From an uncultured Planctomycetia bacterium (GTDB taxonomy: Bacteria > Omnitrophota > Gorgyraeia > Duberdicusellales > 4484-171), in assembly GCA_964526615.1 (NCBI GenBank), contig CAZGLF010000001.1, forward strand, positions 29,179 to 75,786: a DNA stretch of 46,608 bases, in the 5' to 3' direction. Below are positions 23,613-23,815 of the stretch, piece by piece. The position numbers and the translations under genes were made by a program. Positions within the stretch are counted from its first letter, which is position 1. The number at the start of each line of letters is the position of its first letter. The notes under the pieces were generated by a model. It had not been told where the DNA came from and did no database searches. It saw only the letters and a program-made list of their open reading frames with translations.

Positions 23613-23642
23613 TTGACAATAAGAAAATATAAATGTTATAAT
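23613..23642 (+). promoter_or_regulatory. Near-consensus sigma70 promoter with extended -10 (TTGACA, 18-nt spacer, TGtTATAAT)
   Basis: TTGACA at 23613..23618, TG at 23634..23635, TATAAT at 23637..23642. Predicted start near 23649..23651. Confidence 0.7.
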
Positions 23643-23649
23643 GAAAATG

Positions 23650-23815
23650 TAAGTTCCCTGCCTGTCACGTCGGCAGGTGGCAACGCTACAGCCAACACCT
23701 TTTAAGAGGGAGCCGAAATTTCTTATCGTTGCGGCGGTAAAGATAAGGTGCCCACTTGTATGAGAAAAGGACTGATAGCGTAGACCTCTGACGGACTCAC
23801 GGCAGGGCTTTTTTT
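23650..23815 (+). ncRNA. Orphan ~165-nt rod-shaped structured RNA of unknown class (6S-like candidate), ending in a T7 run
   Basis: The 5' CCCTGCC (23656..23662) pairs with the 3' GGCAGGG (23801..23807), followed by TTTTTTT. Further nested helices: CGTC/GACG, ACGCTA/TAGCGT, CCTTTT/AAAAGG, AAGaGGG/CCCaCTT. Apical hairpin CTTATC-14 nt-GATAAG. No ORF. Confidence 0.6.

What the first reader, a model, noticed from the sequence alone, without database searches (positions are those of the whole stretch)
23613..23815. Orphan ~165-nt rod-like RNA with a near-perfect promoter; not recognisable as SRP, RNase P, tmRNA or a known riboswitch
A TTGACA, 18-nt spacer, TGtTATAAT promoter lies 14 nt after the pheT stop. 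It would drive a transcript whose first bases (CCCTGCC) pair with its last (GGCAGGG) just before a T7 run. Between them I can nest at least six further helices separated by asymmetric internal loops, capped by CTTATC-(14 nt)-GATAAG. This gives an extended irregular rod.

Strong expression signals plus a closed rod with internal bubbles are what a 6S RNA looks like. I could not find the class-specific motifs needed to be sure. It could also be a novel sRNA, or a cis-leader of the PAC2-family gene 74 nt downstream.
Basis: seen in the sequence. Interest (0 to 1): 0.6.

Follow-up and report, generated by a model that had tools for sequence, protein, structure and literature searches.

The report
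6S RNA gene of an Omnitrophota bacterium
The flagged ~165-base structured RNA after pheT is this uncultured Omnitrophota bacterium's copy of 6S RNA, the widespread small RNA that mimics an open promoter and sequesters RNA polymerase; it is an ordinary gene that scores just under the database cut-off used for automatic annotation.

Summary
A perfect TTGACA-18-TGtTATAAT promoter (23613-23642) precedes a ~165-nt RNA (about 23649-23815, + strand). The RNA is closed by CCCTGCC/GGCAGGG and ends in C+T7.

A sensitive Rfam scan gives a full-length match to 6S/SsrS (RF00013, model 1-187) at 39.0 bits, E=1.2e-6. That is 7.4 bits under the gathering score, so the default scan was silent.

Orthologues occur once per genome in 131 of 301 Omnitrophota genomes. 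They keep the same pheT-upstream position. Those from other families score 43.6-77.5 bits on RF00013, and 18 of 19 are over the cut-off.

Covariation supports the canonical closing stem, large central bubble and apical stem. In the close set, 22 of 36 pairs show compensatory changes and 95% of cells are paired, against 35-48% for slid controls. The distant set gives 25 of 36 pairs.

The 5' bubble strand carries a near-invariant AGCCAACA. It fits a product-RNA (pRNA) template whose transcript would be 5'-GUUGGCUG.

The cis-leader idea is rejected, because in most relatives a rarA gene lies between this RNA and PAC2.

Verdict: a new member of a known kind, of low interest.

The parts
23613..23618 (+). 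-35 hexamer TTGACA of the 6S promoter
   Evidence: Consensus scan gives 12/12. The pattern is unique in the window, with 0.02 expected. TTGAAA or TTGACA is conserved at this place in nearly all of 30 orthologous loci.
23634..23642 (+). Extended -10 element TGtTATAAT
   Evidence: TGnTATAAT columns are invariant or nearly invariant across orthologues (G36, T38, A39-T43 in alignment A1).
23649..23815 (+). 6S RNA (ssrS) primary transcript. The 5' end is inferred (6-9 nt after the -10). The 3' end lies in the T-run.
   Evidence: RF00013 match at 23652-23812: 39.0 bits, E=1.2e-6, model 1-187/187. The lineage model R1 matches 23651-23815 at 169 bits. The transcription start site is not measured.
23656..23671 (+). 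Closing stem, 5' strand. It pairs with 23790-23807.
   Evidence: Helices 1-2 of the consensus: 13 pairs, 96-98% of cells paired, 5 pairs with compensatory changes.
23675..23691 (+). Internal stem below the bubble, 5' strand. It pairs with 23772-23787 and is the inferred product-RNA template region.
   Evidence: Helices 3-5: 10 pairs, 7 with compensatory changes. GCUACAG is nearly invariant in the family.
23692..23707 (+). Central bubble, 5' strand (CCAACACCUUUUAAGA). The inferred product-RNA start templates at C23696, with A23697 on its 3' side.
   Evidence: Unpaired in the consensus structure. CCAACA is conserved across the phylum. The start site is inferred from the Rfam alignment and the per-sequence table.
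23708..23753 (+). Apical (terminal) stem-loop: GGGAGCC...GGUGCCC base, inner helices, 4-nt loop at 23730-23733.
   Evidence: Helices 6-8: 13 pairs, 10 with compensatory changes, 94-95% of cells paired. The same holds in phylum-wide alignment A3.
23754..23771 (+). Central bubble, 3' strand (ACUUGUAUGAGAAAAGGA)
   Evidence: Unpaired in the consensus apart from a weak 2-bp mini-hairpin. CCCAC(N)UGUAUGAG is conserved in the family.
23772..23807 (+). 3' strands of the internal and closing stems
   Evidence: Pair list mapped to window coordinates.
23809..23815 (+). T7 run. With the closing stem it forms an intrinsic-terminator-like 3' end.
   Evidence: A T-run follows GGCRGGG in all 30 orthologues.

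Best explanation
The element is the single-copy 6S RNA gene (ssrS) of a Candidatus Omnitrophota bacterium.

Shown here:
- It has its own conserved sigma-70-type extended -10 promoter and a stem plus T-run 3' end.
- It is a full-length, statistically significant match to the 6S covariance model.
- It is orthologous to RNAs in other Omnitrophota families that score far above the 6S cut-off.
- Its covariation-supported fold is the 6S architecture: a long closing stem, a large two-sided central bubble and an apical stem-loop.

Inferred from what is established for E. coli and B. subtilis 6S RNAs:
- The rod with its open bubble mimics an open promoter.
- It occupies the active-site cleft of RNA polymerase holoenzyme carrying the housekeeping sigma factor. 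This damps sigma-70-dependent transcription when the RNA accumulates, typically in slow growth.
- On nutrient upshift the polymerase uses the 5' bubble strand as a template. It would start opposite C23696 and make a short product RNA, predicted 5'-GUUGGCUGUAGCG....
- The duplex between that product and the 6S RNA unzips the internal stem, refolds the RNA and releases the polymerase.
For: - Rfam model: RF00013 matches 23652-23812 at 39.0 bits, E=1.2e-6, covering model positions 1-187 of 187. The next-best family has E=0.11.
- Close relatives: BLAST finds homologues at 69-86% identity in 35 of 61 related genomes. On RF00013 they score 33-60 bits, and 7 are over the gathering score.
- Phylum-wide: a lineage model (R1) finds a full-length hit in 131 of 301 Omnitrophota genomes. 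All but one of these genomes have a single hit. The hits from other families score 43.6-77.5 bits on RF00013, and 18 of 19 are over the gathering score.
- Own genome: it has exactly one copy. R1 gives one hit, nhmmer gives one hit, and RF00013 gives no other candidate.
- Covariation, close set (A2): 95.2% of cells are paired, against 35-48% when partners are slid by 1-3 columns. 22 of 36 pairs and 91 cells carry double changes. 0 of 500 shuffles reach any of the measures.
- Covariation, distant set (A3): 93.7% of cells are paired, 25 of 36 pairs carry double changes, and the covariation score is 0.527 against 0.06-0.12 for slid partners.
- Promoter and T-run are conserved. The perfect promoter pattern has 0.02 expected by chance in the window.
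- Product-RNA site: the template base is a pyrimidine in 29 of 30 sequences and an A follows it in 28 of 30. The predicted product has GG at positions 4/5 in most sequences. These match the hallmarks listed in PMC8414754.
- Composition: the RNA is 52% G+C in a 36.4% G+C genome.
Against: - This copy is 7.4 bits below Rfam's gathering score. The default Rfam scan and the whole-genome family search both missed it.
The transcript, its ends and any product RNA are therefore unobserved.
- RNA polymerase binding is inferred by homology only.
- A simple constrained fold did not show a consistent product-RNA-induced rearrangement hairpin across relatives.
- A3 was aligned to the model and leans towards its structure. 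A2 was not.
Confidence: 0.93

Rival explanations
1. It is a cis-acting 5' leader (riboswitch or attenuator) of the PAC2-family gene 74 nt downstream.
For: The RNA and PAC2 lie on the same strand, 74 nt apart, in this genome.
Against: In 48 of the 60 locus records a 410-aa rarA/mgsA gene sits directly downstream, between the RNA and PAC2. The RNA itself is conserved regardless. It ends in a stem plus T7 in all relatives. No riboswitch family matches it.
Confidence: 0.01
2. It is a lineage-specific small RNA unrelated to 6S, or an Ms1-like RNA that binds RNA polymerase core rather than holoenzyme, and only resembles a rod by convergence.
For: The window copy is under the RF00013 gathering score. 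Rod-like RNAs with bubbles are also seen in Ms1 (PMC9130861 abstract).
Against: The chain of orthology is continuous. The RNA keeps the same pheT-downstream position, occurs once per genome and matches the model over its full length. It links to RNAs scoring up to 77.5 bits on RF00013. The conserved bubble sequence and product-RNA hallmarks also fit 6S.
Confidence: 0.03
3. It is a 6S RNA, but it is made mainly by processing of pheST read-through transcripts as a 3'-UTR-derived species. The consensus promoter would then be secondary.
For: Only 13 nt and no terminator separate the pheT stop from the -35. pheT is upstream on the same strand in 50 of 60 loci. The distance from the -10 to the closing stem varies from about 13 to 37 nt among relatives, which hints at 5' trimming.
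Against: The -35 and extended -10 elements are conserved across relatives, which argues that they are used. This rival concerns how the RNA is made, not what it is.
Confidence: 0.03

Closest known systems
6S RNA / SsrS (Rfam RF00013), as characterised in Escherichia coli and Bacillus subtilis 6S-1
   Same: It gives a full-length match to the family model. It is about 160-165 nt long and unbranched, with a closing stem, a large central bubble and an apical stem supported by covariation. The bubble's 5' strand has a conserved pyrimidine start site followed by A, and a predicted product RNA with GG at positions 4/5. There is one copy per genome, with its own strong sigma-70-type promoter and an intrinsic-terminator-like end.
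   Different: It scores 39 bits, under the 46.4-bit gathering score. The apical stem is much shorter than in the Rfam consensus: 5 nt fill a 32-position insert in the model alignment. It lies after pheT rather than before ygfA as in E. coli (the latter from my own knowledge). Expression, polymerase binding and product RNA are untested.
6S RNAs of Lactobacillales and B. subtilis 6S-1 (PMC8414754)
   Same: The architecture is canonical, as described there. The gene is physically linked to rarA: in Omnitrophota relatives rarA lies immediately next to the 6S gene in 48 of 60 loci. In lactic acid bacteria and B. subtilis, rarA is also the conserved neighbour.
   Different: In lactic acid bacteria rarA lies upstream of 6S, whereas in Omnitrophota it lies downstream on the same strand. 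The window's own genome has lost rarA. There is no uspA neighbour.
Ms1 RNA of Actinobacteria
   Same: It is a rod-like, abundant RNA that binds RNA polymerase and is structurally related to 6S (PMC9130861 abstract).
   Different: Ms1 binds core enzyme and is not matched by RF00013. The RNA here and its orthologues are matched by RF00013.

Membership tests
6S RNA (RF00013) | Significant, full-length similarity in sequence and structure to the curated 6S covariance model | tested here: met
   The match is 39.0 bits, E=1.2e-6, covering model 1-187/187. This copy alone is 7.4 bits under the operational gathering score of 46.4, so the default scan was silent. Its orthologues score up to 60.1 bits in close relatives. 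In other Omnitrophota families they score 43.6-77.5 bits, and 18 of 19 are over the cut-off.
6S RNA (RF00013) | Unbranched rod of about 150-200 nt: closing stem, large central bubble or bulge, apical stem-loop | tested here: met
   The consensus structure has 36-38 pairs in 8 helices flanking a 16-nt/18-nt bubble. 95.2% of cells are paired, against 35-48% for slid controls. 22 pairs have compensatory changes. 25 pairs do in the phylum-wide set. The definition of the architecture is taken from PMC8414754.
6S RNA (RF00013) | Template site for product RNA in the 5' strand of the central bubble (conserved A next to the start; GG at product-RNA positions 4/5 or 5/6) | tested here: met
   This covers sequence hallmarks only. 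The template is C or U in 29 of 30 sequences, A follows in 28 of 30, and the predicted product is 5'-(G/A)UUGGCUG.... CCAACA is conserved across the phylum. The start position is projected from the Rfam alignment and from the E. coli U44 start site (own knowledge). Actual synthesis was not observed.
6S RNA (RF00013) | Binds RNA polymerase holoenzyme with the housekeeping sigma factor and inhibits transcription | not testable with these tools
   This needs co-immunoprecipitation or in vitro binding. It is inferred by homology only.
6S RNA (RF00013) | Abundant, stable, discrete transcript | not tested
Only the conserved promoter and terminator signals support expression.
6S RNA (RF00013) | One (rarely two) gene per genome, non-coding, independently transcribed | tested here: met
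   The own genome has a single hit with R1 and with nhmmer. Only 1 of the 131 genomes with a hit has two. No ORF of 40 aa or more overlaps it.
cis-regulatory leader / riboswitch of the downstream gene | Conserved linkage to the regulated downstream gene | tested here: not met
   The downstream neighbour is rarA in 48 of 60 loci. PAC2 is found downstream in 11 of the 60 records, and in a handful of them, this genome included, no rarA lies in between.

The most novel reading that the evidence does not exclude
The gene order pheT, 6S, rarA is kept across the phylum Omnitrophota. It echoes the conserved rarA-6S adjacency in Lactobacillales and B. subtilis. This could reflect a real functional coupling between 6S RNA and the RarA/MgsA replication-restart ATPase rather than coincidence. 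The window's lineage kept 6S but lost rarA, so it would be a natural experiment.
Probability: 0.1. Interest if true: 0.4.

Novelty: new member of a known kind. Interest (0 to 1): 0.15.

Why it matters
The practical value is annotation. In this Omnitrophota family the 6S RNA gene scores around or just below Rfam's cut-off, so standard pipelines will often leave it unannotated. The lineage model and the fixed position after pheT make it easy to find.

It also extends the evidence that 6S RNA, with a recognisable product-RNA template, is kept in small-genome, uncultured PVC-group bacteria. It does not open a new question. I found no paper in the held library that mentions 6S RNA together with Omnitrophota or Omnitrophica.

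Tried and rejected
- The default Rfam scan of the whole window (gathering threshold) found only two tRNAs. The hit appears only with the E-value threshold on the short region.
- The genome search with RF00013 on the own genome returned nothing at E<=1. This tool's first-look filter evidently missed the 39-bit locus. The result therefore shows only that no stronger 6S candidate exists elsewhere.
- I folded 12 orthologues with the predicted 14-nt template blocked, to look for a conserved rearrangement hairpin induced by the product RNA. No consistent alternative helix emerged, so this is inconclusive.
- The degenerate 25-nt pattern also hit an Ereboglobus (Verrucomicrobiota) contig, L031. That locus gives no 6S match at E<=0.01, so I treat it as a chance match.
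- Other weak Rfam matches in the region (SNORD72, snoR30, PyrR; E=0.1-8) are eukaryotic or partial and were dismissed.
- Literature searches for 6S RNA together with Omnitrophica or Omnitrophota found no paper holding both terms.

Full report
**Observation.** The region reads as the first-stage reader described.
- A TTGACA at 23613-23618, an 18-nt spacer and TGtTATAAT at 23634-23642 form a 12/12 sigma-70-type promoter with the TG extension.
- That exact pattern occurs once in the 46.6-kb window, against 0.02 expected from shuffles.
- The promoter begins at the 14th base after the stop of pheT. The pheT ORF spans 21599-23599 and carries the B3_4, B5, tRNA_synthFbeta and FDX-ACB domains.
- CCCTGCC (23656-23662) pairs with GGCAGGG (23801-23807). 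C23808 and seven T's (23809-23815) follow.
- The PAC2-family gene starts 74 nt later, at 23890.
- The MFE fold of 23650-23816 is a single unbranched rod at -62 kcal/mol. Its z-score is -4.0 and 0 of 200 shuffles fold as well.
- No ORF of 40 aa or more overlaps the interval on either strand.
- The RNA is 52% G+C in a genome of 36.4% G+C.

**What Rfam says.** The default scan of the window at gathering thresholds reports only two tRNAs. With the E-value threshold on 23560-23900, the top hit is 6S/SsrS (RF00013) at 23652-23812 on the + strand. It scores 39.0 bits with E=1.2e-6 and aligns end to end (model 1-187 of 187). The family's gathering score is 46.4. The next-best matches have E of 0.1 or worse and are eukaryotic snoRNAs or a partial PyrR site. 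So this copy alone is significant but sub-threshold.

**Organism.** Contig titles of near relatives name Candidatus Omnitrophota MAGs. Some were deposited as 'uncultured Planctomycetia'. Earlier notes on the same genome agree. The assembly is 1.37 Mb in 132 contigs and about 92% complete.

**Orthologues.**
- BLASTN with the RNA finds homologues at 69-86% identity in 35 of 61 related genomes.
- On RF00013 these score 33-60 bits, and seven of them are over the cut-off.
- I built a covariance model from 30 of them (R1) and searched 301 Omnitrophota genomes. 131 have a full-length hit, and all but one of these have a single hit. The hits span other families, the class and another class-level branch.
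- Hits from outside the window's family score 43.6-77.5 bits on RF00013, and 18 of 19 are over the cut-off.
- The window's RNA is therefore connected to RNAs that Rfam recognises confidently as 6S. The connection rests on sequence, structure, copy number and position. Its own family is simply a divergent branch that hovers around the threshold.
- The own genome has exactly one copy (R1, nhmmer) and no other RF00013 candidate.

**Structure.** RNAalifold on a structure-blind MAFFT alignment of 30 orthologues (A2) predicts 38 pairs, 22 of them with compensatory changes. I counted the 36-pair core explicitly.
- 95.2% of cells form standard pairs, against 35-48% when the 3' partners are slid by 1-3 columns.
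- 91 cells carry double changes, against 13-25 for slid partners.
- The covariation score is 0.328, against 0.05-0.11 for slid partners.
- 0 of 500 column shuffles reach any measure.

A second alignment of 27 more distant members (A3) gives 93.7% paired, 25 of 36 pairs with double changes and a score of 0.527. A3 is model-fitted and so biased towards the structure.

Mapped to the window, the parts are:
- closing stem: 23656-23671 with 23790-23807;
- internal stem: 23675-23691 with 23772-23787;
- central bubble: 16 nt on the 5' side (23692-23707, CCAACACCUUUUAAGA) and 18 nt on the 3' side (23754-23771);
- apical stem-loop: 23708-23753.

This is the canonical 6S layout as summarised in PMC8414754.

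**Product-RNA site (inferred).** I projected the E. coli start site (U44, own knowledge) through the Rfam alignment. This places initiation opposite C23696.
- In the 30 orthologues this template base is a pyrimidine in 29, so the product would start with a purine.
- The next base on the 3' side is A in 28.
- The predicted product is 5'-(G/A)UUGGCUGUAGC..., with GG at positions 4/5 in most sequences.
- These are the hallmarks reported for experimentally verified and predicted 6S product RNAs (PMC8414754).
- The CCAACA core is kept across the phylum.
- A constrained-fold search for a conserved release hairpin was inconclusive.

**Expression signals and context.** The -35 (TTGAAA or TTGACA), the TGnTATAAT and the terminal T-run are conserved in nearly all orthologous loci. 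pheT lies upstream on the same strand in 50 of the 60 locus records. A few genomes appear twice in that set because it merges two searches.

In 48 of the 60, a 410-aa RarA/MgsA ATPase gene lies directly downstream. It carries the MgsA_C and AAA_assoc_2 domains (MgsA_C E=2e-53). PAC2 and YjeF_N follow rarA. The window's genome and a few relatives lack rarA at this place, which is why PAC2 is the neighbour here. This rules out a PAC2 leader.

**Mechanism.**
- Shown: the gene is conserved, single-copy and independently signalled, it has the 6S fold, and it is homologous to 6S.
- Inferred from the family: the RNA mimics an open promoter and sequesters housekeeping-sigma holoenzyme. It is released when the polymerase transcribes a short product RNA from the bubble.
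- Not shown: abundance, ends, polymerase binding and product RNA.

**Novelty and score.** 6S RNA is near-universal in bacteria, and most Omnitrophota copies pass Rfam's threshold. This is a new, slightly divergent member of a known family. The held literature has no paper pairing 6S RNA with Omnitrophota, but that is a gap in description, not a surprise. Interest is 0.15.

The only mildly intriguing by-product is the phylum-wide 6S-rarA adjacency. It parallels the adjacency in Firmicutes.

Noticed in passing
window 23816-23889; compare L045:4951-6183: In most Omnitrophota relatives the order is pheS, pheT, 6S, rarA/mgsA, PAC2, YjeF_N. The window's genome has no rarA between 6S and PAC2. A whole-assembly search finds no MgsA_C domain (PF12002), and tblastn gives only a weak 32% partial AAA hit on contig C7. 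rarA therefore appears to be lost, or to lie in the missing ~8% of the assembly.
   Followed up: partly
L002-L030 and L047-L076, flanks of the 6S gene: rarA lies directly downstream of 6S on the same strand in 48 of the 60 locus records across the phylum. rarA is also the conserved neighbour of 6S in Lactobacillales and B. subtilis (PMC8414754). This recurrent linkage in two distant phyla is unexplained.
   Followed up: partly
alignment A1, columns 52-80 (window 23643-23655): The distance from the -10 element to the closing stem varies from about 13 to 37 nt among orthologues. Some (L005, L015, L025) have A-rich insertions. This suggests variable 5' leaders or 5' trimming of the 6S precursor.
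   Followed up: no
G176:C11:65912-66068 and G176:C7:43-199: One Omnitrophota genome has two full-length hits to the lineage 6S model, one of them at a contig end. This could be a true second 6S paralogue or assembly redundancy.
   Followed up: no
whole genome G000, tool behaviour: the genome search with RF00013 on the own genome reported no match at E<=1, although cmscan scores the locus at 39 bits (E about 1e-6). The tool's first-look filter can miss divergent 6S genes, so negative family tallies from it should be read with care.
   Followed up: yes
L031:5312-5336 (Ereboglobus sp. MAG contig): The 25-nt degenerate pattern from the 6S 3' bubble strand also matches a Verrucomicrobiota contig. 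That locus gives no 6S hit at E<=0.01, so it is probably a chance match.
   Followed up: partly
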